This document shows, one piece after another, positions 32,508-43,388 of a stretch of DNA of 58,220 bases (positions within the stretch are counted from its first letter, which is position 1; every line of letters starts with the position of its first letter). Source of the DNA: a virus (taxonomy: Duplodnaviria > Caudoviricetes); IMG/VR virus record IMGVR_UViG_3300036820_000022, positions 1-58,220 of that record. One strand, 5' to 3'. The notes below the pieces were generated by a model. It did not search any database. It was not told the DNA's origin and saw nothing but the letters and a program-made list of their open reading frames with translations. A program made the translations under genes and the position numbers.

Positions 32508-33824
32508 TTGTCACGCAGCCTGCTTTCGTACCCTGACAAGTTCGGTGGCGTCACCTCTAACTACGCCTTCCGTGAATCCGTCGTCATCGGCAACTTCGAC
32601 GCTGTCGAAAACGTCGTGCTGCTGCGCGCCGGCCACGGCAATCTCGGTCAGCGCCACTGGTACTCGGCTGCCGCGCTGCAGGATGCCGTCGCACGCGACA
32701 TCTTTGAGGCCGCGCAAGCCTATTTGGATCACCCCTCGACGATCGAAGAGCAAACGCGGCCCGAGCGCTCCGTGCGCGATTTGGCTGGCTGGTACTCCGA
32801 CGTCGAGGTCCGCCCGTACACCGATCCCGAGGTCGGAAAGACGGTCGCGCTGTTCGGTACGTTCCACCCAGCGGTCGGCAAAGACGAGGTCGTCACGATC
32901 GTTCGGACATGCATTGAATACGCAAAAAGGTACCCGAGAATGGCGTGGGCGGGCCTGAGCATCAATGCTTACGGTGACAGCGTCCCTCAGACAATCGACG
33001 GTGAGCAATGGAATGTCGTCGATCGTATAGAGGGAGTCGACTCGGTCGATATCGTCACCAAAGCCGGCGCAGGCGGAACACTTGTTGCGTCTCTCAAGGA
33101 GAGCTATCGAATGAAAACCGGTTCCAAAAGAAAGCCGACCCGCGAAGCCGACGTCAAGTTGACGCTCGACGCCGACGCGATTCGCGATGGCATCAAGAAG
33201 CTGTCCGAGAGCGGCAAAGCCGAACGCAAAGCCGCGATCGTCAAGGTCGTTGAGTCCGCGCAGGGCGGCGTTAAGGTAACGCCCGAGCAAGACGCCGAGA
33301 TCGATCGCCAGTTAGGCGTTGTCGATGGCGGCGCGCTCGATAAAGTGCTCGACGACGCGACCGGCGTCTCGGACGAACCCGACGACGAAGAAGGCGCGAT
33401 CGATCCGCTGAACCCGGCGGCCGCGACCGAAGGCGATGCGGAAGTCGAGGCGATGCCCGACGATCCCAAGTTCCTCAAGGCGCAGCTCAAGAAAGAGCGC
33501 GGCGCGCGCAAGACCGCCGAGAGCAAGGTCGAGACCGCCGAAGAGCGCGCGACCGAAGCCGAGCGCAAAGCCGGGCTGCAAACTCGCGAACGCATGGCCG
33601 AAAACGTGCTCAGTCAACTCGAAATCCCCGACGACTACCGCCCGCGACTTCGCTGGGAGTTAGTCAAGGAAGGCTTTACGCACGAGAAATCGATGCGTGA
33701 GCACGTTAAAGCGTTCGACATGGCTCACATTCGTCGCAACGACGGTGCCGGAGTTGTTTCCGGCTCGCCGACAGGCGGCGGCAGCAAAGTTTCCGCCGAC
33801 AGCTTCACCTTCGAGGAGGCGTAA
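32508..33824 (+). CDS. Prohead protease / scaffold fusion
   Basis: YLDHP...ERSVRDLAG, GLSINA.G, VDSVDIVTKAGAGG, then an acidic/coiled-coil scaffold region. Confidence 0.85.
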   Translation: MSRSLLSYPDKFGGVTSNYAFRESVVIGNFDAVENVVLLRAGHGNLGQRHWYSAAALQDAVARDIFEAAQAYLDHPSTIEEQTRPERSVRDLAGWYSDVEVRPYTDPEVGKTVALFGTFHPAVGKDEVVTIVRTCIEYAKRYPRMAWAGLSINAYGDSVPQTIDGEQWNVVDRIEGVDSVDIVTKAGAGGTLVASLKESYRMKTGSKRKPTREADVKLTLDADAIRDGIKKLSESGKAERKAAIVKVVESAQGGVKVTPEQDAEIDRQLGVVDGGALDKVLDDATGVSDEPDDEEGAIDPLNPAAATEGDAEVEAMPDDPKFLKAQLKKERGARKTAESKVETAEERATEAERKAGLQTRERMAENVLSQLEIPDDYRPRLRWELVKEGFTHEKSMREHVKAFDMAHIRRNDGAGVVSGSPTGGGSKVSADSFTFEEA

Positions 33825-34386: not shown

Positions 34387-35601
34387 ATGGATATCTCTGC
34401 AGTCCGCAAACGGCTGGCCGAAGCCGGAGGCAATCGAGAAGGCGTAGCACGCAGCGTCGCCATCGCCGCGGCGGTCAACCGCGAGAAGTTCGGCGAAAAG
34501 GCGCAGAGCTGGTGCACCCGTTGGGGCCGTCAGTTCCAGCGCGAGCACGGCTACGATGGGCTCAAGCTCATCAATCAGCCCGGCTTCAACTTCAAAGAAG
34601 CCGCACGGCAACTGCGCGACAAGATGGGTTTGCGCGAAGACGTTGCAACGAGCCAGGTGTACGCCTTGGCAACGGGCCTCGTCACGCAAAACCTCTCCAA
34701 CGCCTACGAAGTCGTGCCGACGGTCTACCGCGAAGTCGCCAAGATTCTGAGCTCGACGCGGGCCGAAGAGACGTACTTCCCGCTGCAGGGAGCCAACGTT
34801 CCCAGCCCCGTGGAAGACGACGAGGCGCTCCCGACCTCGAGCCTCGGCGGCAACTTGACGCGGATCCGCAACTACAAGTTCGGCGAAATCCTCGAGCTGT
34901 CCAACACGCTCGAAGAGGACGACCAAACCGGTCAAGTGGCCGAGCAGGCTTCCAATCTCGGCGACAAGATGGCGTACGCCGAAGAGCAGTGGTGGGCGTC
35001 GCAACTCATCACGGCCTACGCGACCGGAAACATTCGCCAGGCCGATGGCGGCAGCGCAGGCGGGATCATCCCGGGCGCGTGCATCGCTGGATCGGCGCCG
35101 GTCGGCTACGGCGGTCCGGTTACCACGGCAGGCATTCCGACGCGCGACGGCATCGCGAACCTCTTCACCGCAGCCGACTACATCACGAACGTGCTGGGAG
35201 ACCTGGCGCTGTTCGAAGTGGACTGCGGCGTCTTCGCCAACGCCGACAAGATCACGGTGAACACGATTCTCAAGTCGGACTTCAATCCGAACACGCCGGC
35301 GAACACGCCCAACACGGTCAACGGCATCTTCGCTCGCAATCAGCTCGAAGATATCTTCGTGGCCAAGTTCACGCGGTTCTTCAAGTTCTTCGCGGGTCAG
35401 ACGCTCTCAGGCGCGGGTAATCCGTGGTTCTTGGGCGAGGCCGGCAAGATCGGCGCGTTCCAGGATCGCACGCCGCTGACGGTGATCATGGAAGTCCCCA
35501 ACGCTGGCGACTCGTTCAACAAGAGCGTGCGTCGGACCAAGTGCGAGCGTCGGTTTGGTGCCGGCGTCGTGATCCCCGAAGCAACTCTGAGGGGGAACTA
35601 A
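34387..35601 (+). CDS. Major capsid protein (HK97 fold, Mu gpT-like)
   Basis: 404 aa, strong codon bias; IRNYKFGEILELS..LEEDDQTG.V, C-terminal RFGAGV. Confidence 0.85.
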   Translation: MDISAVRKRLAEAGGNREGVARSVAIAAAVNREKFGEKAQSWCTRWGRQFQREHGYDGLKLINQPGFNFKEAARQLRDKMGLREDVATSQVYALATGLVTQNLSNAYEVVPTVYREVAKILSSTRAEETYFPLQGANVPSPVEDDEALPTSSLGGNLTRIRNYKFGEILELSNTLEEDDQTGQVAEQASNLGDKMAYAEEQWWASQLITAYATGNIRQADGGSAGGIIPGACIAGSAPVGYGGPVTTAGIPTRDGIANLFTAADYITNVLGDLALFEVDCGVFANADKITVNTILKSDFNPNTPANTPNTVNGIFARNQLEDIFVAKFTRFFKFFAGQTLSGAGNPWFLGEAGKIGAFQDRTPLTVIMEVPNAGDSFNKSVRRTKCERRFGAGVVIPEATLRGN

Positions 35602-36239: not shown

Positions 36240-36761
36240 ATGCCAAGAAAACGCCTTGAAGAAAACGCGACCGCTGTCGCCCCCGCGGCCTCCACGGGGA
36301 TGCTCGATGGAAAGGTCGCGGTCCAAGCCCCAGCCGCCCCCCCGGCAGTCCACCGCCCCAAGGATGGGACGAAGGAACGTCCGCCGGCCCCGGTCGTGCG
36401 TGACTCGATGGCCGCGCTGACCGCGCGCCTGGGCTCACCCACCTTTTGGGAGAACAACGCGCGCTTTGAGTGGGCGAAAGCGCCCAACAATCACCACTAC
36501 GAGTTCACGCGCTTTTACTTCCACGAGCTCGTGCTCGTCGACGTCTGGAAGACCTCGAATCCAAGCGATAAGAAGGCCGCCGAGCACAAGCGCAAGTGCG
36601 TCGACGCTGAGAATACCAAGCGCGTTGCCATGGGCGAGAAGCCGATCGGCCTGATTGCCGTCGTGCGCGGCGCGATCATTCCCGACGAGTATTTTTCGCG
36701 CGTACTGGCCGGCGAGACGTTTGCCCTAATCGAGCGATCGACCGAAGGGGTTTTGGTCTAA
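36240..36761 (+). CDS. Hypothetical protein
   Basis: Clean ORF after the promoter motif. Confidence 0.65.
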   Translation: MPRKRLEENATAVAPAASTGMLDGKVAVQAPAAPPAVHRPKDGTKERPPAPVVRDSMAALTARLGSPTFWENNARFEWAKAPNNHHYEFTRFYFHELVLVDVWKTSNPSDKKAAEHKRKCVDAENTKRVAMGEKPIGLIAVVRGAIIPDEYFSRVLAGETFALIERSTEGVLV

Positions 36762-36765
36762 CCTC

Positions 36766-37410
36766 GTGGCGATTACCGTCGCGAACGTTCGAACGGCGAT
36801 CGGTGACAGGCCGCAGCTATGGCCAGCGCCGGGCTCGCCGCCTGAACTGATGGGCCAAGCCGACGGTGTCAGGACGATCTTCAGCATCCGCTACGAAAAC
36901 TATATCGACGGCACGCTGACGGTTTACGAAGCCACGGCGCCGCCGTCGAGCAGTGGCGAAACGGCCGTGTGGACCGCGGTCGATCCGTCGCTCTACGTGG
37001 TCGGATCGACGCCCAACCCGACCAGCACCGGCGCGACCAACGCGATCATCACCTTCAACGCGGCGCCCGACGCCGGCACGTTCATCGGAGGGGGCTATCA
37101 AGTCACGGCGTTCTCCGACGACGATCTCAACGGTTACTTGACGCGCGCGCAGGCGTTGTACTCCGACGACGCTTCGGTGCTCAAGCGGGCGCAGTTCGAT
37201 ATCATCGACGCGCTGCTGATGGACTACAACCGGCTCTACCTGCTCGCCCAAGGCGAGTACCGAACCGATCCGGCCTCGTACGCCGCATCGCTCAAGCAGC
37301 TCAAAGCCGAGCTGCGCAAAGACCTCACAGGCGATCCGGTTCCGGGCTCGTCGAGCCCCGCGATGCTGATCGGCAACGTTGTGACGCGCCGATATCAGCC
37401 GTTTCGGTGA
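36766..37410 (+). CDS. Head-tail adaptor-like protein with inserted beta domain
   Basis: VRTAIGD...FSDDDLNGYL flanking a ADG.RTIFS..ITFNAAP.AG beta insert; synteny. Confidence 0.65.
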   Translation: MAITVANVRTAIGDRPQLWPAPGSPPELMGQADGVRTIFSIRYENYIDGTLTVYEATAPPSSSGETAVWTAVDPSLYVVGSTPNPTSTGATNAIITFNAAPDAGTFIGGGYQVTAFSDDDLNGYLTRAQALYSDDASVLKRAQFDIIDALLMDYNRLYLLAQGEYRTDPASYAASLKQLKAELRKDLTGDPVPGSSSPAMLIGNVVTRRYQPFR

Positions 37411-37414
37411 CATA

Positions 37415-38077
37415 ATGCAGATCGCGTGCTTTTGGTTAGAGGGAACTTTACGCGCGCGGCGCTCGCTCCGGCGCTACTCGCGCGAGGGATCGCCCGACGC
37501 CGCTGTCTGTAAGCAGCCGTGGGGTTACCACAACGCCCATGCGCTAATCGACGACGTCCCGTTTGAAATCAAGCCGAGCGGTGTCAGAAGCGAATACCGA
37601 ACGTTCGACTTCCTGGGCGCCGATAAGCTCGAGCTTTTTCCGGCCGAAGATCCGCGCTGGCCGGCCAAATGCGAACACTGCGACTATCGCTTTGAGGACG
37701 GGGACAAGCGCCAGGTATTTATCCGGCCGCTTTATCGACGCATAGATACGAGCGAAGAGTTGATCCTCGACGACGCACCGCCGGGTGCGATGTGGGATGC
37801 CTGGTGGTACGGAGATTCTGATTTTCCGACGCCGCCACGCCCCGATGGCATCCACTTAATGGTGCGCTGCCCCGGCTTTATGGCGGAAGACGGGAGCCAT
37901 GCCGACTGGTACGTCGACGGCATCGCCGGGAACGGAGACCGGAATTCTTACGGATGGAGTCGCTCGGGCATTCCGAACCAGCATCCGCCGAGCGTCACCG
38001 CAAACCCGTCGATCCAGATCACCCAGACTAACGGCTACCATGGGCGGCTTAAAAGCGGTTTTTTGGTACCAGCGTGA
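37415..38077 (+). CDS. Conserved hypothetical protein
   Basis: WP.KCE.C.Y.F, PGAMWDAWW, W.VDG, VTANPSI, GYHG.L..G.L motifs. Confidence 0.7.
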   Translation: MQIACFWLEGTLRARRSLRRYSREGSPDAAVCKQPWGYHNAHALIDDVPFEIKPSGVRSEYRTFDFLGADKLELFPAEDPRWPAKCEHCDYRFEDGDKRQVFIRPLYRRIDTSEELILDDAPPGAMWDAWWYGDSDFPTPPRPDGIHLMVRCPGFMAEDGSHADWYVDGIAGNGDRNSYGWSRSGIPNQHPPSVTANPSIQITQTNGYHGRLKSGFLVPA

Positions 38078-39996
38078 TCGTCGAACTCAACGGCACGTCG
38101 CTGCGCACCGCGCGACAGTGCGCGCACCGGATGCTCGAACGGACCAACCCGGTCAAGTCCAACGATGCGCCGGCGCCGCGGGCCTACAAGATTTCCGCCG
38201 TCGCCGAACGGCTCGAGCGCCAGCGTATGCGGGCCAAGGTCGCCGGCACCCGCAAGCTGCGGCTGCAGCTGCTCTCGATTCTGCACGCGTGGCGATCGTC
38301 AGTCGTCGCCGCGGTGCGCCGCAGCAACAAGCGCGAAGCCGACGTCGGGCAACTCGATAACGAGCTCGGCGCGGCCGTCGACGCTGGCATCCTCACCGAC
38401 GATCAGCGCCACGCCATCATCGCAGCCGTCACCGAGGCGCTCGCGTCGATGGATCCCAAGGCAATCGCGACGGCCATCGCCGCAGCGCAGCAAGAGCTGT
38501 TCAATGCGGGTCTCGATTCGGGCAAAGCCGAGGTCGGCATTACCTGGGATATGCCGCCGACGCTCGCGCTGGATCAACTCAATGCTGCGACTATCCCATT
38601 CTCGCAAGAAATCGTCGATCGCGAGGTCGCCGCGATAAAGCAGGCGCTCCAAGACGGCATCGCGGCCGGAGACGGCATACCGGCGATGGCGCAGCGGATT
38701 CAAGACACCTTTGACGACGGGATGCACATTCTAGCGCAGGGACCGCCTGGCCGTGACGGTGAGCGCCCTGTAGTGCGCGTGATCCCAAGCGATTCATGGG
38801 CCGAGATGGTCGCGCGCACCGAGACGTCGCGAGCGATGAATGCCGGAATCATGCAGACCTACCGCTCGGCGGGAGTGGCGCGAGTGATGTGGATTAGCGC
38901 CGAAGATGAGCGCCAGTGTGCGGCTTGCGAAGCCGCCGATGGGGACATAGTCTTACTCGGTCAGGTCTTCGCCGACGTTGGAGCAACGGAACCGCCGGCA
39001 CATCCGTCGTGCTGCCCGGAGGGAACACTAATCTTGACGGAGCGCGGCGAGGTCCCTATTGAAACGGTTGGCGTCGGCGATTTAGTTTGGACTCATCTGG
39101 GACGCTGGCGCCCTGTCGTTGGCCTCATGCAACGCGAAGTTTCGGAGCATCTTTGGACGGTCCGGGCCGGGCATAGGATACTCAGGATCACCGGAAACCA
39201 CCCCGTTTATACGCCTAATGGGTGGACGCGGGCCGCGTCCTTGAAAGTAACGGATGAGGTCTACTGCGTGAATTCGGAAGCGGTGCTGAGTGCAACCTCC
39301 CAGCCGAATAACGCGCCAGCCGTTCGCTCTCAAGTAGGCATCCTTCACCGCATCTGCGGCGCGCTTTTTGGGAACCGCGTGCCAACCCCCACCATCGATC
39401 TCTACGGCAAAGAAGCGATCGGTGATAGCAACGTCGATCATGTATTTTCCCACGGCGTAGTTAAGGACCGCGCTAATGCCAGCAGCAGCGAGTGCGTCGT
39501 GGACGATGGTTTCATAGACGGATATGGCGCGACCTTGGCGGCTTCGGGCTTTACGGGCGAGAGCGTCCTCGCTCACCTTGCTTCCACGCACGGCATCGTG
39601 AGCGGCCTTCGAGAGCGCAGCGCGCTCGGCAGCGCTCGTGCGGCTCATCCGGAGGTACATAGCACCGCTTCGGTTGCGCTGCTTGAGCCCGACGCGTGCA
39701 AAACCGCTGACGATTGCGGTCCTTGCGACTCCGTAGCGCTCCGCCAGGGCTTTAACCGAAGCACCGGCGATGTGCTCCCTGTAGATTTTCCGACTTTGGT
39801 CGTAAGTAAACGCCCGCTTCATACTGCCGTTGTACCCATCGCTTCGTTTGAATGCCTGAACTTCGAAGGCATCGTTTACAACTTCGAAGTGGCCGAAGAC
39901 GAGTCGTATGTGGCCGAAGGGATTGTCGTGCATAACTGCCGCTGCACCGTAGTCTCAGCCGGCACAGCCGAAGCCTCCGACGACGAGGCCGCGTAG
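38074..39996 (+). CDS. MuF / SPP1 gp7-family minor head protein containing an intein
   Basis: AEMVARTETSRAMNAG, W.SAEDER.C..C...DG, PPAHPS|CRC split by a Hint domain. Confidence 0.92.
   Translation: MIVELNGTSLRTARQCAHRMLERTNPVKSNDAPAPRAYKISAVAERLERQRMRAKVAGTRKLRLQLLSILHAWRSSVVAAVRRSNKREADVGQLDNELGAAVDAGILTDDQRHAIIAAVTEALASMDPKAIATAIAAAQQELFNAGLDSGKAEVGITWDMPPTLALDQLNAATIPFSQEIVDREVAAIKQALQDGIAAGDGIPAMAQRIQDTFDDGMHILAQGPPGRDGERPVVRVIPSDSWAEMVARTETSRAMNAGIMQTYRSAGVARVMWISAEDERQCAACEAADGDIVLLGQVFADVGATEPPAHPSCCPEGTLILTERGEVPIETVGVGDLVWTHLGRWRPVVGLMQREVSEHLWTVRAGHRILRITGNHPVYTPNGWTRAASLKVTDEVYCVNSEAVLSATSQPNNAPAVRSQVGILHRICGALFGNRVPTPTIDLYGKEAIGDSNVDHVFSHGVVKDRANASSSECVVDDGFIDGYGATLAASGFTGESVLAHLASTHGIVSGLRERSALGSARAAHPEVHSTASVALLEPDACKTADDCGPCDSVALRQGFNRSTGDVLPVDFPTLVVSKRPLHTAVVPIASFECLNFEGIVYNFEVAEDESYVAEGIVVHNCRCTVVSAGTAEASDDEAA
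39010..39936 (+). mobile_element. Intein (309 aa) in MuF
   Basis: Block A CCPEGTLILT, block B ITGNHPV, block F VYNFEV, block G IVVHN followed by Cys+1; splicing restores HPSCRC. Confidence 0.93.
39082..39822 (-). CDS. HTH + DUF559/Vsr-like PD-(D/E)xK endonuclease encoded antisense inside the intein
   Basis: GASVKALAERYGVARTAIV HTH; ETIVHDAL...GKYMIDVAI....AVEIDGGGWH......DAVKDAYLRANGWRVIRL. Confidence 0.85.
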   Translation of the reverse strand: MKRAFTYDQSRKIYREHIAGASVKALAERYGVARTAIVSGFARVGLKQRNRSGAMYLRMSRTSAAERAALSKAAHDAVRGSKVSEDALARKARSRQGRAISVYETIVHDALAAAGISAVLNYAVGKYMIDVAITDRFFAVEIDGGGWHAVPKKRAADAVKDAYLRANGWRVIRLGGCTQHRFRIHAVDLIRYFQGRGPRPPIRRINGVVSGDPEYPMPGPDRPKMLRNFALHEANDRAPASQMSPN

Positions 39997-40347
39997 ATGC
40001 CGCGCGTGCCGTCATCGTCTCGCTGGCCGCAGCGCCTTGCGGCGACGCAGCAGGCGTCATATTTCGTCGATAACCGCAATCCGACGACCGATAAGCTCGA
40101 CCGCGTCGGCCCGTACTTAGCCGAGATCATTCCAACCAGCGGCGATCTGCAAGTTCCATCTACTGACAAGAGCGGCAATCCGATTATGGTGAACATCGAC
40201 GCGCGGCTTTGGCTGCCGGCCGAATCGGGCGCAGCGTCGAGGTCAATCGTTACAAACATTCTCACCAACGCCGCTTTTGCGGTCGTCTACGTGCAGCCGT
40301 GGGATGACCGGCTCGAATGCTTCGTCGTGCGGAGAACGCCGCGATGA
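39997..40347 (+). CDS. Head-closure-like protein
   Basis: Small beta-rich ORF in neck position; synteny only. Confidence 0.55.
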   Translation: MPRVPSSSRWPQRLAATQQASYFVDNRNPTTDKLDRVGPYLAEIIPTSGDLQVPSTDKSGNPIMVNIDARLWLPAESGAASRSIVTNILTNAAFAVVYVQPWDDRLECFVVRRTPR

Positions 40348-40838
40348 TCGGCGGAAGCTCCAACGCCGAGCAGATCCTCGCGAAGCTGAGGGCGCAAGCA
40401 GCGCGGCTGAGCGACCTTTCGGTGCCGCTGACCCAAGCCGGCATCGTCGTGCGCGATGCGGCGGTCATGCGCATCAAAGAGCAGGGCGGCGACCAGGATT
40501 GGCTACCGAACAAGCGCGGCGGCCATACCGGAATCGACTCCGGGCGCATGATGAGTTCGATCCAAGTCTCACCGGTTGCGCAAAACGCCGTCAGCGTCGG
40601 CACCAATCTTCAGTACGCGAAATGGTTCCAGGAAGGAACCGGGATCTACGCCGGTCACACCCCGTGGACGATCAAACCGAAGTCGAAAAAGGCGCTGGCG
40701 TTTACAAGCGGCGGCGTCGAATACGTGCGGCGCTCGGTGACGATACCAGGCGAACCCCGGAGGCCCTACCTGCTTATTACGGATACGGAAAAGGCAGGGA
40801 TACGCGATGTGTTTTATCATTGGATCAATGCCTCTTAG
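40344..40838 (+). CDS. Virion morphogenesis / tail-completion protein (Mu gpG-like)
   Basis: DSGRMMSSI....VSVGTNLQYA...QEG...VTIP..PRRPYL. Confidence 0.8.
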   Translation: MIGGSSNAEQILAKLRAQAARLSDLSVPLTQAGIVVRDAAVMRIKEQGGDQDWLPNKRGGHTGIDSGRMMSSIQVSPVAQNAVSVGTNLQYAKWFQEGTGIYAGHTPWTIKPKSKKALAFTSGGVEYVRRSVTIPGEPRRPYLLITDTEKAGIRDVFYHWINAS

Positions 40839-41526
40839 CGAACACGAAAAGGCTCTATGCCGAAAGCGTTATCGGAAGAATCGCACCAAAATACTGGCGC
40901 GGATGAAAGCCGCGTATGACGCGAACCCTGAAGCTAAAAAGGCGCGCTCTAAGGCTTACCGCTCCGCCAATCCAGATGGCTGCGCCGCCCGGGACAAGGC
41001 AAAGCGGCAACGTTATCTCGCCGAGGCCCAAGCTGGCACCGCACCATTTAGGTGCTGCAAAAAGTGCGGATCTAAAGTTGAGTGGCGCGGCCGCGATTGC
41101 CGCGTTTGCCGAAAGGCGGTCAATCTAGCCTATCGGGCCGCTAATCCCGAAAAAGTTAAAGCTATCCAGGCAGCTCGGTACGCTGCCGACCCGGATGGCG
41201 AAAGGGATCGAGTGCGTACCTGGCGCTCTGCAAATCCAGCTAAGGTTGCCGCGATAAAGCACCGTCGGTACGCCCGCGAAGCCGGCGCGCAAGGGGACCA
41301 TATGGAGTCAGAGTGGCGCGCGATCGTCGAGCTACAGAAATACCGTTGCGCCGACTGCGGCCAGAAGGTCAAACTTACCAAAGACCATATCGTTCCGCTG
41401 TCCCGCGGAGGCTCCAACTTCGCATTTAATCTGCAGGGTCTCTGCGTGCGCTGCAATTCTCGAAAGAATTGCAAGCTGCCCGCGGGGCTGCAACACACAC
41501 TTTTTGACCGAGGAGCGGCAGCGTGA
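40828..41526 (+). CDS. HNH endonuclease with basic repeat N-terminus
   Basis: RCADCG....LTKDHIVPLSRGGSN...NLQGLC..CNSRK; overlaps both neighbours. Confidence 0.9.
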   Translation: MPLSEHEKALCRKRYRKNRTKILARMKAAYDANPEAKKARSKAYRSANPDGCAARDKAKRQRYLAEAQAGTAPFRCCKKCGSKVEWRGRDCRVCRKAVNLAYRAANPEKVKAIQAARYAADPDGERDRVRTWRSANPAKVAAIKHRRYAREAGAQGDHMESEWRAIVELQKYRCADCGQKVKLTKDHIVPLSRGGSNFAFNLQGLCVRCNSRKNCKLPAGLQHTLFDRGAAA

Positions 41527-42812
41527 GCGACACGACGAATATCGAGCTCTGGAGCAAGATCGACGACGCCATCTACGCAAACATCGTCGCGGCCACGCAG
41601 TCCGGCGGACCGTTAGCGGTTCAGAGTAATCCCGACGGCACGACGGGTATTCAGCATATAGCGCGCGTCGCGCCGCCGACGCAAAAGCTCTTTCCCAGCG
41701 TCGGCGTCATGTGCCTGAGCTACGACGAAGTGATCTCCGGCTCGGCCAAGCACGATTTTACGGCCACGTGGGCGATCGTAGTAACGGTTCAGCAGCCCTT
41801 TGACCCGACGATCGACGATATCGGCGAGACGGCGATGACGCTGCTGCGCGCCTATCAGGACGACGGTTCCGGAAACGGCATCTCTCCGCTGCTGCGCGGC
41901 AACGTTACCGTCAACGGCATCGCGCAATGGTCGCAGATCACGGCGATGGAGCGCCATCTACTCGAAGGCAAGACGTCTGAAGATATGATCGCGACCGCGA
42001 TCTACACCTTCGAGGTCCACTACTCGATCAAGATCGCACCGGTCACGGTTCCCGCGCCCGGCGGCTCGGGCTACGTCAATCTCACCGGCCAAGGCTTCGT
42101 CGATACCGGCTCGCCTGGCGGCCTGCAAACCGACAGCAGCGGCATTATCGACTCGACCGGTTCGGAAGACTGGGAGATCGACGCGACCAACGGCGCCCTG
42201 GTCAGCGCGGTCAATGGCGGCAAAATCTTTCTCGGGCCCGACTTTCCGTTTATCGACGGGAGCAACGCCGGCTCGTACCTCACCGCCGACGGCGGCACGG
42301 TGCAGATCGGCATCGGCTCGGGCGACTCGTGCGAGGTCAGCTTCGGCATCTCAGCAGTCGGTACGATTCACGTCTACGGCAAGCTCAAACTCTCAGGTTT
42401 CGGCTCGCTCGAGGTCGGCGGTGCCGGCGATGGAACACTTGTTATCGGGGCGCTGGGCGAGTTCGATCTGCCCGGCGATGCCGACGTGCTAATGCAAGGC
42501 AACCTCACCATCGAATCACTTGTTTCGGTGCCACCCGATATCGCGACGCTGACCGATACCGGCGGCGTGCTCGCCATGTTCACGCACACCGAGGTCGGCT
42601 TGGCCGCGGCGTTCAGCGACAGCTCGTTCTTGGACGGTTCGCTGGGCGAGATCACGGCCTGGGCCTGGGACTTCGGCGATTCATCGGGGACCTCGACCGA
42701 TCAGAATCCCGACTATACCTACGCGGCCGGCGGCACGTATAACGTTTCGCTGACCGTGACGACTGCCGGGGGCGGTTCATCCCAGGGTTCGGCCCAGGTA
42801 ACGGTCGCCTAA
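41523..42812 (+). CDS. Tail-terminator-like protein fused to Gly-rich region and PKD domain
   Basis: N-terminal ~170 aa in terminator position (synteny); C-terminal FSDSS..G.ITAWAWDFGD..TSTDQNP.YTY...GTYNVSLTVT is a PKD domain. Confidence 0.7.
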   Translation: MSDTTNIELWSKIDDAIYANIVAATQSGGPLAVQSNPDGTTGIQHIARVAPPTQKLFPSVGVMCLSYDEVISGSAKHDFTATWAIVVTVQQPFDPTIDDIGETAMTLLRAYQDDGSGNGISPLLRGNVTVNGIAQWSQITAMERHLLEGKTSEDMIATAIYTFEVHYSIKIAPVTVPAPGGSGYVNLTGQGFVDTGSPGGLQTDSSGIIDSTGSEDWEIDATNGALVSAVNGGKIFLGPDFPFIDGSNAGSYLTADGGTVQIGIGSGDSCEVSFGISAVGTIHVYGKLKLSGFGSLEVGGAGDGTLVIGALGEFDLPGDADVLMQGNLTIESLVSVPPDIATLTDTGGVLAMFTHTEVGLAAAFSDSSFLDGSLGEITAWAWDFGDSSGTSTDQNPDYTYAAGGTYNVSLTVTTAGGGSSQGSAQVTVA

Positions 42813-42816
42813 AAGC

Positions 42817-42863
42817 GGACACGGGGCACCCTCTGTCGGCGCCTGAGGCCAAGAGCGCCGCCC
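42817..42863 (+). promoter_or_regulatory. GGACAC late-promoter-like element (tail operon)
   Basis: 47 nt upstream of ATG 42864; CCAA at offset 32. Confidence 0.65.
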
Positions 42864-43388
42864 ATGAGGATACGGTATCAGCCCAAGCGCGGCGCGGTCG
42901 AAGTCGAGCTGCGCGATATCGTCGGCGGCAGTCCGCTTGCGAAGTGGTACACCGGCGACGAGCGCGACATTCCGCCAGGCACAAAGGTCGTTTGGGGCGA
43001 CGGCGCATCGCCGGCTTTCCAACTCGACGCGGCACTGGCGATCTTCCGGCACGGCCCCGACTTCGTCGACGCGTCCACCGGCAAAAACCCGCTTTACTCG
43101 TGCGCCAACTGCGGAGCCGAAGCGCTTGCCGAGCACGCGTTTGACTACGAGCGCGACCAAACGATTCCGTTCGTCAACGCCGACGGCAAGCGTTTGTGTC
43201 CGTCGTGCTGGCTGGGCGCGCACCCCGACCGTATTCCCTACTTCCGCGACACGCTGCGCTACGGCAAAGACGCCCCCGACGTCATCAAGCGCGCGCAAGC
43301 GATCGCCGCCAAAGCCGCGCCGGTGCAAGCCGCGCCACCACCCGATAAACCGGCGGATACCGCCGCGCCCGGAGGATCTGCCAAGTGA
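42864..43388 (+). CDS. Hypothetical protein with zinc finger
   Basis: CANCG...LCPSC; coupled to the tail tube gene. Confidence 0.6.
   Translation: MRIRYQPKRGAVEVELRDIVGGSPLAKWYTGDERDIPPGTKVVWGDGASPAFQLDAALAIFRHGPDFVDASTGKNPLYSCANCGAEALAEHAFDYERDQTIPFVNADGKRLCPSCWLGAHPDRIPYFRDTLRYGKDAPDVIKRAQAIAAKAAPVQAAPPPDKPADTAAPGGSAK

What the first reader, a model, noticed from the sequence alone, without database searches (positions are those of the whole stretch)
39010..39936. Intein whose endonuclease is encoded on the opposite strand (dual-coding mobile element)
Seen: the MuF gene carries a 309-aa intein with intact splicing blocks (C1, TxxH, VYNFEV, HN|C), inserted in the conserved HPxCRC motif. The ~184 sense codons between the Hint halves (about 39271..39822) have no recognisable nuclease motif and no stop. 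The minus strand, in the same codon register, encodes a 246-aa HTH + DUF559/Vsr-type PD-(D/E)xK nuclease (MKRAFTY...IDVA..AVEIDG..WH...KD.YL...GW.VIR). It starts at the edge of the C-terminal Hint half, and its tail runs ~60 codons antisense into the N-terminal half. A TACAAC -10-like hexamer lies 6 nt before its ATG. Known: intein homing endonucleases (LAGLIDADG, HNH, some DUF559) are normally in-frame parts of the intein polypeptide. Inference: an inverted free-standing endonuclease gene colonised a mini-intein. Splicing would remove the junk sense peptide, while the nuclease is expressed separately and could drive homing with timing independent of the late MuF transcript. I do not know of this architecture being described, but cannot confirm novelty without a search.
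Basis: partly seen in the sequence, partly recalled or inferred. Interest (0 to 1): 0.92.

Follow-up and report, generated by a model that had tools for sequence, protein, structure and literature searches.

The report
MuF intein with antisense homing endonuclease
A phage head-assembly gene carries a self-splicing intein whose DNA-cutting "homing" enzyme is written backwards on the opposite strand, codon on codon; the layout is real and under selection on both strands, but it was already described in 2025 and turns out to be widespread in phages.

Summary
The window is a 58-kb soil phage contig. Its MuF gene (38074-39996) holds a 309-aa intein at HPS|CRC. A 246-aa HTH + Vsr/DUF559-type nuclease is encoded on the minus strand (39082-39822), exactly in codon register.

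Evidence that both strands are selected:
- Against a 65%-identical relative, substitutions fall on antisense third positions inside the nuclease ORF (105/28/53). Elsewhere they fall on sense third positions.
- The nuclease uses no TTA, CTA or TCA codon, each of which would stop the sense frame (4.4 expected, P about 0.008). Across 69 relatives the count is 0 against 308 expected.
- AlphaFold2 folds the nuclease (Vsr Z 9.5) and both Hint halves. The sense insert comes out disordered.

A near-isogenic phage (L091) has the empty site.

The architecture is not new. Gosselin, Arsenault and Gogarten (bioRxiv 2025) describe antisense VSR-like endonucleases in actinophage minor-capsid inteins. Antisense LAGLIDADG inteins date from 1998.

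What I did not find in the parts of that preprint I read:
- The element is common: 85 of 86 loci examined are nested in register, and 87 GenBank phages carry it, including Salmonella Jerseyviruses.
- In most relatives the nuclease's Shine-Dalgarno sequence and ATG are written in the codons of splicing block F. The window's lineage has lost that start.

Verdict: a new member of a known kind.

The parts
38074..39009 (+). MuF (minor capsid / head morphogenesis) N-extein, aa 1-312, ending ...PPAHPS
   Evidence: Pfam Phage_Mu_F 5e-14 and TIGR01641 1.2e-11. Substitutions against L004 are 75/63/158 at sense codon positions 1/2/3.
39010..39936 (+). Intein, 309 aa, C1 ... VVHN, followed by Cys+1
   Evidence: Hint_2 and intein_Cterm hits. 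C1, H64, G71 and N309 are invariant in 54 aligned relatives. The AF2 model matches mini-inteins across both halves: 7cfv TMt 0.75, 2imz 0.76.
39010..39300 (+). N-terminal Hint half (intein aa 1-97), with block B T61-G-N-H64 at 39190-39201
   Evidence: pLDDT 95-98 for aa 1-90. A sense-type substitution pattern holds up to about aa 360 of the ORF.
39301..39816 (+). Sense-frame linker (intein aa 98-269): open but predicted disordered, the mirror image of the nuclease gene
   Evidence: No Pfam or NCBIfam hit. pLDDT is mostly below 50 for aa 99-267. Sense identity to L004 is 0.37 against 0.66 in the flanks, with substitutions 105/28/53.
39817..39936 (+). C-terminal Hint half (intein aa 270-309): block F VYNFEV at 39874-39891, block G VVHN
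   Evidence: pLDDT 91-98, TIGR01443 hit, substitutions 9/7/19.
39937..39996 (+). MuF C-extein CRCTVVSAGTAEASDDEAA plus stop
   Evidence: It aligns with the intein-less alleles of L091 and L093.
39082..39822 (-). Antisense homing-endonuclease gene, 246 aa plus stop, in exact codon register with the intein
   Evidence: PF18741 8.7e-11 and DUF559 2.6e-5. The start is shared with L004, where an in-frame stop lies 11 codons upstream. No TTA, CTA or TCA codon against 4.44 expected.
39673..39822 (-). N-terminal helix-turn-helix DNA-binding part of the nuclease (aa 1-50), followed by a conserved helical region to about aa 95
   Evidence: In the AF2 model aa 1-50 match the Hin recombinase and KorB DNA-binding domains at Z 5-6. 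The RNRS.AM..RM...AAHDAVRG motif is conserved in 69 relatives.
39238..39528 (-). Vsr / DUF559 / EDxHD-type nuclease domain (aa 99-195), with E104, D130 and E141 invariant in the family, plus D143 and H148
   Evidence: 1cw0 Z 9.5 (rmsd 2.6 A, 103 aligned), 3hrl Z 8.8, 3r3p Z 8.7. Profile against PDB: 3hrl 1e-11, 3r3p 5.6e-7. Invariant columns.
39085..39222 (-). C-terminal tail of the nuclease ORF (aa 201-246), antisense to Hint block B; probably not a folded part of the enzyme
   Evidence: pLDDT below 50. In six pairs, the last 10 or so codons before the stop show the sense-type substitution pattern, and the next 30 or so a mixed, slowed pattern.
39244..39300 (.). About 19 codons where predicted folded parts of both proteins overlap (Hint aa 79-97 against nuclease aa 175-193)
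   Evidence: Coordinates derived from the two AF2 models. The substitution pattern here is nuclease-dominated: 21/3/9 for ORF aa 391-420.
39829..39834 (-). TACAAC, a -10-like hexamer 6 nt before the nuclease ATG; its function is untested
   Evidence: L006 has TGGTACAAT at the same place. The consensus scan reports no minus-strand promoter.

Best explanation
The region is a two-part mobile element in the phage's MuF gene. On the + strand sits a class-1-type intein. Its two Hint halves are joined by a roughly 170-residue linker that has no fold or function of its own. On the - strand, codon on codon with that linker, sits a free-standing gene for a 246-aa homing endonuclease: an HTH DNA-binding region plus a Vsr/DUF559/EDxHD-type nuclease domain.

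Proposed working:
1. The late MuF precursor is translated straight through the linker.
2. The Hint domain splices itself and the linker out, which rejoins ...HPS to CRC... and restores the conserved HPxCRC motif.
3. The nuclease is made from a minus-strand message.
4. It cuts intein-less MuF alleles of co-infecting relatives at or near the HPxCRC-coding site.
5. Repair from the occupied allele copies the intein and the nuclease together, along with flanking markers.

Shown here:
- both coding frames are present and under purifying selection;
- the sense frame is kept open by synonymous codon choice in the nuclease gene;
- the folds are as stated;
- empty alleles exist;
- a recent transfer occurred within the family.

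Inferred, not shown: splicing, transcription and translation of the minus strand, cleavage and its target, and timing.
For: **Frame-specific selection.**
- Window against L004, substitutions at sense codon positions 1/2/3: exteins 75/63/158; insert 105/28/53, so most change falls on antisense third positions; Hint C 9/7/19.
- The same inversion appears in 5 of 5 informative independent pairs. The sixth pair has no substitution in the intein.

**Sense frame kept open by codon choice.**
- The window's nuclease gene has 0 TTA/CTA/TCA against 4.44 expected, P(0) = 0.0077.
- Across 69 distinct relatives the count is 0 against 308.4 expected.
- The single free-standing relative (L017) has 4 such codons in 221.

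**Nuclease.**
- Pfam hits pass the cut-offs.
- AF2 mean pLDDT is 83.3, with aa 1-200 confident.
- Fold matches: Vsr Z 9.5, I-Bth0305I Z 8.7; profile hits to 3hrl and 3r3p.
- E104, D130 and E141 are invariant in 69 sequences.

**Intein.**
- All splicing residues are present.
- Both halves are confident and together match mini-inteins, while the insert has pLDDT below 50.

**Mobility.**
- L091 is 96-98% identical to the window in the flanks but has an intein-less MuF. Identity on the 3' side rises from 77% to 97% away from the insertion site.
- L093 also has the empty site.
- L010 and L011 differ at 9% of positions overall but share an 875-nt tract with no mismatch that coincides with the intein.
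- 62 Salmonella-phage records carry the nuclease, against 360 Salmonella-phage records with a match to the Jerseyvirus MuF N-extein query.

**Family.**
- 85 of 86 loci found by nuclease homology alone are nested antisense, all in the same register.
- 81 of the 85 loci scanned with my own Hint profiles have both halves flanking the nuclease.
- In 7 of 7 GenBank records checked, the match lies antisense to the annotated head gene.
Against: - No expression data exist: no RNA run holds the sequence.
- No sigma-70-like promoter is found on the minus strand by the consensus scan.
- The window's ATG has no Shine-Dalgarno sequence.
- The window's lineage lacks the block-F SD+ATG found in 38 of 54 relatives, so its nuclease may be poorly expressed.
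- The window's only intein-bearing relative found is 65% identical in the nuclease. It is one sequence, seen on one IMG/VR contig (L004/L006/L092) and one MAG contig (L086). There is therefore no sign of recent transfer in this particular lineage.
- The diverged block shared with L091 extends more than 1.6 kb to the 5' side. That is long for a co-conversion tract and could be ordinary phage mosaicism.
- H148 and D143 of the window are not conserved across the whole family; the Salmonella and Gordonia members lack them.
- Splicing and cleavage are untested.
Confidence: 0.8

Rival explanations
1. The nuclease gene is real, but the element is no longer mobile in this lineage. The intein is a vertically inherited passenger, and the antisense protein is inactive, weakly expressed, or kept for another use such as DNA binding or exclusion of competing phages.
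For: - The window has lost the block-F SD+ATG used by most relatives and has no SD at its own ATG.
- No promoter is found by the consensus scan.
- The nearest intein-bearing relative is only 65% identical in the nuclease.
- The preprint reports that some VSR-like-HEN inteins look vertically inherited.
Against: - Antisense-frame purifying selection persists over the divergence between the window and L004.
- The residues invariant in the family, plus D143 and H148, are intact.
- A near-isogenic phage has the empty site, with a divergence gradient around it.
- An inactive nuclease gene would be expected to gather stops.
Confidence: 0.13
2. The MuF gene is dead. A nuclease gene inserted into an intein, and the sense frame is open only by chance because in-register antisense frames stay open in GC-rich DNA.
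For: The window has 62% GC. For the most GC-rich relatives the chance of an open frame is 0.3-0.6.
Against: - For the window itself P(0) = 0.0077.
- Relatives with 38-48% GC have P between 1e-8 and 1.5e-2 and are also open. The family total is 0 observed against 308 expected.
- Exteins and Hint halves show normal sense-frame purifying selection.
- All splicing residues are intact.
- MuF lies in an otherwise intact head and neck module.
Confidence: 0.04
3. The antisense ORF is an artefact and the sense insert is the real, unrecognised endonuclease or accessory domain of a canonical intein.
For: The sense frame is open and shows a few conserved residues in the insert. In the 54 aligned inteins, three adjacent insert positions are nearly invariant as H, G, D; the window has Y-G-K at these positions (132-134).
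Against: - No HMM hit on the sense insert.
- pLDDT is below 50.
- Sense identity is 0.37, with most substitutions at sense position 1.
- The conserved sense residues are the mirror of the nuclease's VAVE.GG.W motif.
- The antisense protein passes curated Pfam cut-offs and folds as Vsr.
Confidence: 0.02

Closest known systems
Non-canonical actinophage inteins with an anti-sense VSR-like homing endonuclease (Gosselin, Arsenault & Gogarten, bioRxiv 10.1101/2025.01.02.630785; abstract, sections 8 and 15, and found passages from sections 3, 8, 12, 14, 15 and 28 read)
   Same: - The nuclease ORF is on the antisense strand between the splicing blocks.
- The sense insert has no recognisable structure.
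- The host proteins include minor capsid proteins.
- The nuclease model matches Vsr 1CW0 (their Z 10.6, mine 9.5) and relates to 3R3P.
- The origin hypothesis is the same: a free-standing HEN invaded an intein.
- Gordonia phage MuF genes carry direct relatives of the window's nuclease.
   Different: - The window is a soil metagenomic phage, not a PhagesDB actinophage.
- Its nuclease ORF runs about 72 codons into the N-terminal splicing half, whereas the preprint says such ORFs typically lie outside the splicing domain.
- Its start signals differ from those of most relatives.
- I could not see the preprint's supplementary tables, so I cannot say which of my Gordonia loci it lists.
Anti-sense or out-of-frame LAGLIDADG endonuclease in the cyanobacterial DnaX intein. 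Gorbalenya 1998, Non-canonical inteins, is known to me only as cited. For Phillips et al., bioRxiv 10.64898/2026.09.14.751524, I read the abstract and section 17.
   Same: A nuclease in a reading frame other than the intein's. A frame-specific selection signature, with low dN/dS in the nuclease frame. Secondary invasion of a mini-intein is proposed.
   Different: A different nuclease family (LAGLIDADG), a different host gene (dnaX) and a cellular genome.
Fractured genes: split inteins with a free-standing Vsr-like endonuclease gene between the halves (Dassa et al. 2009, PMC2677866; passages read)
   Same: - The same nuclease superfamily, with Asp51-type and invariant-Glu active-site residues.
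- Found in phages.
- The nuclease gene lies between the N and C intein parts with its own expression signals.
- The nuclease ORF overlaps the neighbouring intein part.
   Different: There the host gene is broken into two ORFs and the intein is split and trans-splicing. Here one continuous ORF is kept, and the nuclease is antisense and in register.
I-Bth0305I, the EDxHD homing endonuclease of a phage recA group I intron (PDB 3R3P)
   Same: The catalytic domain is among the best sequence and fold matches: 5.6e-7, Foldseek TMt 0.68-0.69, Z 8.7.
   Different: It is intron-encoded and has a different N-terminal DNA-binding region. Its target and cleavage chemistry were not compared here.
Canonical large inteins (PI-SceI type) with an in-frame LAGLIDADG or HNH domain
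   Same: The same Hint fold, the same position of the insert within the Hint domain, and the same presumed homing logic.
   Different: In those the nuclease is part of the intein polypeptide. Here it is a separate protein from the other strand, and the in-frame insert is filler.

Membership tests
Intein (Hint-fold protein-splicing element, class 1 type) | N-terminal nucleophile Cys1 and block B T-x-x-H | tested here: met
   C1 and T61-G-N-H64 are present. C1 and H64 are invariant, and T61 and N63 nearly so, in 54 relatives.
Intein (Hint-fold protein-splicing element, class 1 type) | C-terminal His-Asn followed by Cys, Ser or Thr at +1 | tested here: met
   The sequence ends VVHN|C. TIGR01443 hits at 3.4e-7. 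N309 is invariant.
Intein (Hint-fold protein-splicing element, class 1 type) | Hint fold formed by the N and C parts | tested here: met
   In the AF2 model aa 1-97 and 270-309 have pLDDT above 90. Foldseek matches 2lwy, 7cfv and 2imz at TMt 0.75-0.76, prob 1.00. This is a prediction, not a solved structure.
Intein (Hint-fold protein-splicing element, class 1 type) | In-frame insertion in a conserved host motif, with intein-less alleles in relatives | tested here: met
   The insertion is at HPS|CRC. The empty sites are HLL|CRC in L091 and HPS|CRC in L093.
Intein (Hint-fold protein-splicing element, class 1 type) | Protein splicing activity | not testable with these tools
   Indirect evidence only: the sense frame is kept open against expectation.
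Vsr-like / DUF559 / EDxHD homing endonucleases | Sequence membership in the nuclease family | tested here: met
   PF18741 scores 42.2 bits against a cut-off of 38.2. PF04480 scores 24.5 against 20.6. The family profile hits 3hrl at 1e-11 and 3r3p at 5.6e-7.
Vsr-like / DUF559 / EDxHD homing endonucleases | Vsr-type restriction-endonuclease-like fold | tested here: met
   1cw0 Z 9.5 (rmsd 2.6, 103 aligned), 1vsr Z 9.0, 3hrl Z 8.8, 3r3p Z 8.7.
Vsr-like / DUF559 / EDxHD homing endonucleases | Active-site acidic residues: the Vsr Asp51 equivalent and the family's invariant Glu (Dassa 2009) | tested here: met
   D130 and E141, together with E104, are invariant in 69 sequences. The equivalence to Vsr residues is by motif position and was not checked residue by residue on a superposition.
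Vsr-like / DUF559 / EDxHD homing endonucleases | Trp-His (Vsr Trp68-His69) motif | tested here: inconclusive
   The window has GGGW-H148. Family consensus is WH, but the Salmonella and Gordonia members lack the His.
Vsr-like / DUF559 / EDxHD homing endonucleases | Site-specific DNA cleavage of the intein-less allele | not testable with these tools
Non-canonical intein with anti-sense VSR-like HEN (Gosselin et al. 2025) | Nuclease ORF on the strand opposite the intein, between the splicing blocks, in a continuous host ORF | tested here: met
Non-canonical intein with anti-sense VSR-like HEN (Gosselin et al. 2025) | The in-frame insert forms no recognisable structure | tested here: met
   pLDDT is below 50 for most of aa 99-267, and no HMM hit falls there.
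Non-canonical intein with anti-sense VSR-like HEN (Gosselin et al. 2025) | Homology of the nuclease to those of the actinophage minor-capsid inteins | tested here: met
   tblastn hits inside the Gordonia phage MuF genes at 33-42% identity, E 1e-14 to 8e-16 for the Fosterous, Vivi2, Affeca and Angelicage records shown and 2e-8 for Malisha, on the antisense strand. Whether these exact phages are in the preprint's tables could not be checked, because supplements are closed.
Fractured gene / split intein with free-standing Vsr-like HEN (Dassa et al. 2009) | Host gene broken into two ORFs, each carrying a split-intein half | tested here: not met
   There is a single uninterrupted 640-aa ORF, and 84 of 85 related loci are likewise continuous across the nuclease.
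Canonical HEN-containing intein | Nuclease domain translated in frame as part of the intein | tested here: not met
   The sense insert has no nuclease hit and no predicted fold.

The most novel reading that the evidence does not exclude
The element is one old composite that has spread through the MuF HPxCRC site of phages whose hosts span several bacterial phyla. In it, the nuclease's expression signals are written into the codons of the intein's own splicing blocks.

- The His codon of block F (G-H-V-Y-D/N-L) reads ATG on the other strand.
- The D/N-L-Q/E codons read as GGAGG or GAGG seven to eight bases upstream of that ATG.
- In one clade the S-L-Y-I codons read as TATAAT.

If so, the most conserved intein residues double as the nuclease's ribosome-binding site, and neither part can drift without harming the other. 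The window's lineage has lost this start and uses a downstream ATG with no SD, possibly on a leaderless message.

I did not find this dual coding of signals in the parts of the 2025 preprint that I read. The preprint says the second ORFs typically lie outside the splicing domain.
Probability: 0.55. Interest if true: 0.65.

Novelty: new member of a known kind. Interest (0 to 1): 0.5.

Why it matters
The window gives an independent example, outside the actinophages, of an intein whose homing endonuclease is a separate antisense gene.

- The evidence that both strands are selected is unusually clean. A near-isogenic empty allele is available for comparison.
- The family-wide data show the layout is not a curiosity of a few actinophages. 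It is a common, successful design aimed at one site in MuF, and it occurs in well-studied Salmonella, Klebsiella and Gordonia phages where it can be tested at the bench.
- The data support the view that inteins acquire endonucleases by invasion of free-standing genes.
- Automated annotation misses these nuclease genes. The word-indexed search of the 5.8-billion-cluster protein collection returned only one near-identical entry, and no PHROG family matched. The exhaustive profile search, however, found 1,656 representative proteins at E up to 1e-30, whose genomic context is unknown.
- The in-register antisense arrangement is a natural case of long-range dual coding. Each strand avoids stops by synonymous choice alone, which may be useful for methods that detect overlapping genes.

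Tried and rejected
**Searches with little or no yield**
- blastn of the MuF gene against GenBank phages gave only a 67-nt chance-level match in Erwinia phages.
- A word-based protein search with the nuclease found only one 98%-identical protein.
- PHROGs has no family for the nuclease.
- A search with the L017 free-standing nuclease for more free-standing cases found only L017 itself and one further nested case, L095.

**Promoter.** The consensus scan found no minus-strand promoter and only two weak +-strand terminator-like sites. I do not count either as evidence.

**Expression.** No RNA holder is listed for the stretch. Four soil DNA runs hold all or part of it.
- Their contigs, laid on the window, show pieces of the intein in runs other than the probable source.
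- One of these, record 9 of run X2, bridges the N-extein/intein junction.
- No contig joins across the intein.
- One loose end in run X3 looks, by my own reading, like the C-terminus of the L091-type intein-less MuF. I treat that as a hint only.

**Co-divergence.** The distance matrices are near saturation.
- Hint against nuclease: Spearman rho 0.33, Mantel p about 0.003.
- Nuclease against extein: rho 0.22.
- Hint against extein: rho 0.04, not significant.
- 53 loci were used. This is weak support for Hint and nuclease travelling together, no more.

**-10 box.** A TATAAT-like hexamer lies 13-50 nt before the block-F ATG in 18 of 40 inteins, against 24 of 803 control windows. Most of the 18 belong to one clade, and my flag for an extended -10 used the wrong offset. 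I report it only as a hint.

**Literature**
- The searches 'intein + homing endonuclease + opposite strand', 'intein + antisense + endonuclease + phage', 'intein + MuF', 'intein + DUF559' and 'intein + head morphogenesis' gave no paper on this layout in MuF.
- The search 'intein + actinophage + homing endonuclease' found the two preprints.
- From the search listings alone, no paper appeared to describe the antisense nuclease in Jerseyvirus or other enterobacterial phages. One GenBank record is annotated 'minor head protein with inserted intein'.
- Supplementary tables of the 2025 preprint were not available and may list some of the same Gordonia phages.

**Rejected readings.** I rejected a sense-strand nuclease, chance openness of the sense frame, and a split (fractured) gene. 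See the rival explanations and the membership tests.

**Data handling**
- For one search, two loci whose tblastn match ran past the nuclease stop (L006, L086) were cut at that stop, duplicates were removed, and L017 was left out.
- For A4, loci whose intein start could not be placed from my HMM coordinates were left out, as was L074 (a 697-aa intein). That left 54 sequences: the window plus 53 drawn from L004 and the 65 distinct inteins.

Full report
**What is there.** The window is a whole IMG/VR virus record of 58,220 bases, linear, estimated 71% complete.

The + ORF 38074..39996 (640 aa) is a MuF-type minor capsid protein. It hits Pfam Phage_Mu_F at 5e-14 and TIGR01641 at 1.2e-11. It lies in a head and neck module:
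- head maturation protease at 32508;
- major head protein at 34387;
- Neck1/tail completion protein at 40317;
- minor tail protein at 43385.

MuF is interrupted at ...PPAHPS|C by a 309-aa intein (39010-39936). The intein has Cys1, block B T61-x-x-H64, VYNFEV, and VVHN followed by Cys+1.

On the minus strand, 39082..39822 encodes 246 aa. It passes the curated cut-offs of PF18741 (REase_MTES_1575, 8.7e-11) and PF04480 (DUF559). The two reading frames use the same codon triplets, as the coordinates show.

**Which strand is selected where.** A relative with 65% nuclease identity (L004, IMG/VR) has the same layout. I threaded codons on the protein alignment and counted substitutions at sense codon positions 1/2/3:

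| Region | Positions 1/2/3 |
|---|---|
| Exteins | 75/63/158 |
| C-terminal Hint half | 9/7/19 |
| Insert | 105/28/53 |

- Sense position 1 is antisense position 3. The insert therefore evolves as a minus-strand gene, and the rest as a plus-strand gene.
- Sense-protein identity drops from 0.66 to 0.37 in the insert.
- Six independent pairs of related loci were compared. Five had substitutions in the intein, and all five show the same inversion.
- The switch lies 10-20 codons inside the nuclease stop, and about 20-30 codons beyond the start of the nuclease match.

**Is the open sense frame selected?** In this register a sense stop is the complement of a TTA, CTA or TCA codon in the nuclease gene.
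- From the Leu and Ser codon usage of the phage's own exteins, the window's nuclease gene should hold 4.44 such codons. It holds none (P about 0.0077).
- In 69 distinct relatives, found by nuclease homology alone, the total is 0 observed against 308.4 expected. Single-locus probabilities fall to 1e-7 in genomes of 38-48% GC.
- The relatives are not independent, but many are only about 30% identical.
- The one free-standing relative (L017) has four such codons in 221.

The sense frame is thus kept open by synonymous choice. That makes sense only if the MuF precursor must be translated through the insert and then spliced.

**Folds.**
- The AlphaFold2 model of the nuclease, built from 69 sequences, has mean pLDDT 83.3. 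Residues 1-200 are confident and 201-246 are below 50.
- Residues 99-205 match Vsr (1cw0, Z 9.5, rmsd 2.6 A over 103 residues). They also match 1vsr (9.0), the DUF559-like 3hrl (8.8) and the catalytic domain of homing endonuclease I-Bth0305I (3r3p, 8.7).
- Residues 1-50 match HTH DNA-binding domains at Z 5-6 (Foldseek).
- The family profile hits 3hrl at 1e-11 and 3r3p at 5.6e-7.
- E104, D130, A139 and E141 are invariant in 69 sequences.
- The model of the sense intein, built from 54 sequences, is confident for aa 1-97 and 270-309. It is mostly below pLDDT 50 for aa 99-267.
- That intein model matches mini-inteins across both halves: 2lwy and 7cfv at TMt 0.75-0.76, and the Mtu RecA splicing domain.
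- Predicted folded parts of the two proteins overlap over about 19 codons (39244-39300).
- The nuclease tail that runs over block B is predicted to be disordered.

**It is a family, and a large one.**
- tblastn of the nuclease against 50,697 GenBank phage records hits 87 records. They are Salmonella 62, Gordonia 8, Klebsiella 8, Escherichia 2, Vibrio 2, Edwardsiella 2, and one each of Pantoea, Shigella and 'Jerseyvirus'. In every row shown (30, 45) the match lies under a gene annotated as head morphogenesis, MuF, minor capsid or hypothetical protein. One further record has no annotation.
- In 7 of 7 records inspected, the match lies on the strand opposite the annotated gene.
- In IMG/VR, 230 of 418 pattern matches encode relatives, and the best 80 were kept. 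Five more came from genomes or MAGs labelled Baltobacteraceae, Streptosporangiaceae, Bacteroidota, Anaerolineae and 'uncultured bacterium'. MAG labels may be wrong.
- Of these 85 loci, 84 have the match wholly inside a long open frame on the other strand, always in the same codon-on-codon register. A further locus, L095, is the same.
- 81 of 85 have both Hint halves flanking the nuclease, and 62 have a MuF N-extein by my own profiles.
- Among the 21 loci whose N-extein my MuF profile did not match, Pfam finds Intein_splicing in 17, Phage_Mu_F in 3, VG15 in 2 and Phage_min_cap2 in 1. Their consensus junction is again H..C| ... HN|CRC.
- The insertion site is the HPxCRC motif throughout.

**Mobility.**
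- L091 is nearly the same phage as the window. It is 96.3% identical over 36316-37408 and 98.1% over 41512-43112, and the 429-aa protein is 99% identical.
- L091's MuF is 325 aa with an uninterrupted ...HLL|CRCTVVSAG.
- The N-extein is only 77% identical. On the 3' side, identity rises from 77% to 97% over about 500 bases. This fits co-conversion around a homing site, although ordinary mosaicism is not excluded.
- L093, 58% identical in the aligned part of the N-extein, also has the empty site.
- L010 and L011 are 91% identical overall but share an 875-nt tract without a single mismatch. It runs over L010 256-1129, and the intein is 261-1088. That is the signature of a recent transfer.
- Among GenBank phages, 360 Salmonella-phage records match the Jerseyvirus MuF N-extein, but only 62 hold the nuclease.

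**Origin.** L017 carries a free-standing relative of the nuclease.
- It converges on an intein-less MuF gene and overlaps that gene's last 74 bases.
- By my count from the ORF coordinates, it ends within roughly 5-30 bases of the HPRCSCR codons.

This is the kind of arrangement from which an intein-nested copy could arise, or into which one could escape. All nested copies share one register, one site and one layout, so I favour a single old capture followed by spread as a unit. The distance correlations are weak.

The in-register frame is also the least costly one. By the structure of the genetic code, stops on either strand correspond to Leu or Ser codons that have synonyms.

**Expression signals.**
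- In my first count, 39 of 54 aligned inteins begin block F with His. It is coded CAT in 35, against 17.5 expected from extein usage, and CAC in 4. On the other strand these read as an in-frame ATG or GTG.
- 38 of those 39 have GGAG, GAGG, AGGT or AAGG within 15 bases upstream.
- The block-F Leu is CTC in 35 of 45, against 11.7 expected.
- A second script counts 40 inteins with the His start, because the first missed L076.
- The nuclease's Shine-Dalgarno sequence and start codon are thus written in the codons of G-H-V-Y-D/N-L-Q/E.
- A TATAAT-like hexamer precedes this in 18 of 40 such inteins, against 3% of control windows. Most of the 18 belong to one clade.
- The window and L004 lack all of this: block F is I/L-V-Y-N-F-E. 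They start 17 codons further in, at an ATG without an SD, preceded by TACAAC (TGGTACAAT in L006). A leaderless message is possible but untested.

**What is known.** The architecture is in print.
- Gosselin, Arsenault and Gogarten (bioRxiv 2025) found 63 non-canonical inteins among 784 in actinophages. These include anti-sense VSR-like HENs. They note that minor-capsid inteins were exclusively non-canonical, model the nuclease on 1CW0 (Z 10.6) and link it to 3R3P. They propose invasion of an intein by a free-standing HEN.
- They credit antisense LAGLIDADG HENs to Gorbalenya 1998 and Gogarten 2002, neither of which I read.
- Phillips et al. (bioRxiv 2026) show frame-specific selection for the dnaX case.
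- Dassa et al. 2009 defined the Vsr-like HEN family between split-intein halves.

The window is therefore a new member of a known kind. In the sections I read, I did not find the spread beyond actinophages, the strict single register, the stop-avoidance statistic, the near-isogenic empty allele, the free-standing neighbour of MuF, or the start signals coded in block F. Supplements were closed and may bear on some of these points.

**Verdict.**
- Observation: confirmed.
- Interpretation: right in its biology, wrong in assuming novelty and a local origin.
- Confidence that this is a working or recently working intein plus antisense homing endonuclease: 0.8.
- Interest: 0.5.

Noticed in passing
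window 40807-41526 (+): A free-standing HNH / endonuclease VII-like gene (239 aa; phrog_1035 at 3.9e-18, many HNH phrogs) lies between the Neck1 gene and the 429-aa gene. The near-isogenic L091 lacks it: window 40775-41511 has no match in L091, and the flanks are 91-98% identical. In L004/L092 a 52-56% identical copy lies at a different place. It looks like a second mobile endonuclease gene in the same structural module.
   Followed up: partly
window 37415-38077 (+): The 220-aa ORF just upstream of MuF has no PHROG hit. L091 has about 370 unrelated bases in its place. L004 carries a 63.5% identical copy. It belongs to the same diverged block as the MuF N-extein.
   Followed up: partly
L017 2435-3100 (+) and 3027-3896 (-): This is the only non-nested relative among the 86 loci. 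The nuclease gene is free-standing and convergent with an intein-less MuF, overlaps that gene's 3' end by 74 bases, and stops within roughly 5-30 bases of the HPRCSCR codons (my count from the ORF coordinates). It uses 4 TTA/CTA/TCA codons, unlike all nested copies.
   Followed up: partly
L010 256-1129 against L011: An 875-nt tract without mismatch coincides with the intein, in two viral contigs that otherwise differ at about 9% of positions. This indicates a recent transfer of the intein plus nuclease.
   Followed up: yes
block F of 54 related inteins (for example L009, L014, L022, L045, L062): The antisense of the G-H-V-Y-D/N-L-Q/E codons reads TTGGAGGTnATAnAC-ATG. This gives an SD and a start codon for the nuclease, with strongly biased CAT (His) and CTC (Leu) codons. 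The window's lineage lacks it.
   Followed up: yes
L074 2405-4495 (-): By my boundaries, the intein at the MuF site in this locus is 697 aa, about twice the usual length. It may hold a second insertion.
   Followed up: no
L007 1259-3586 (-): The host protein of this nested element carries a Pfam InPase (PF18823, 5.4e-27) domain after the intein. This is an unusual C-terminal part for a MuF-like protein.
   Followed up: no
GenBank records NC_073177.1 (L098) and others: Annotation is inconsistent. Some records call a fragment of the antisense nuclease ORF 'hypothetical protein' inside the head morphogenesis gene. Some label the MuF gene 'NAD+--asparagine ADP-ribosyltransferase'. One Escherichia phage record says 'minor head protein with inserted intein'.
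   Followed up: no
L091 about 2350-2376 against window 38989-39009: The empty allele of the near-isogenic phage encodes D-H-L-L before CRC, where the window and L093 have A-H-P-S. This could be a variant of the homing site, but whether it affects cleavage is unknown.
   Followed up: no
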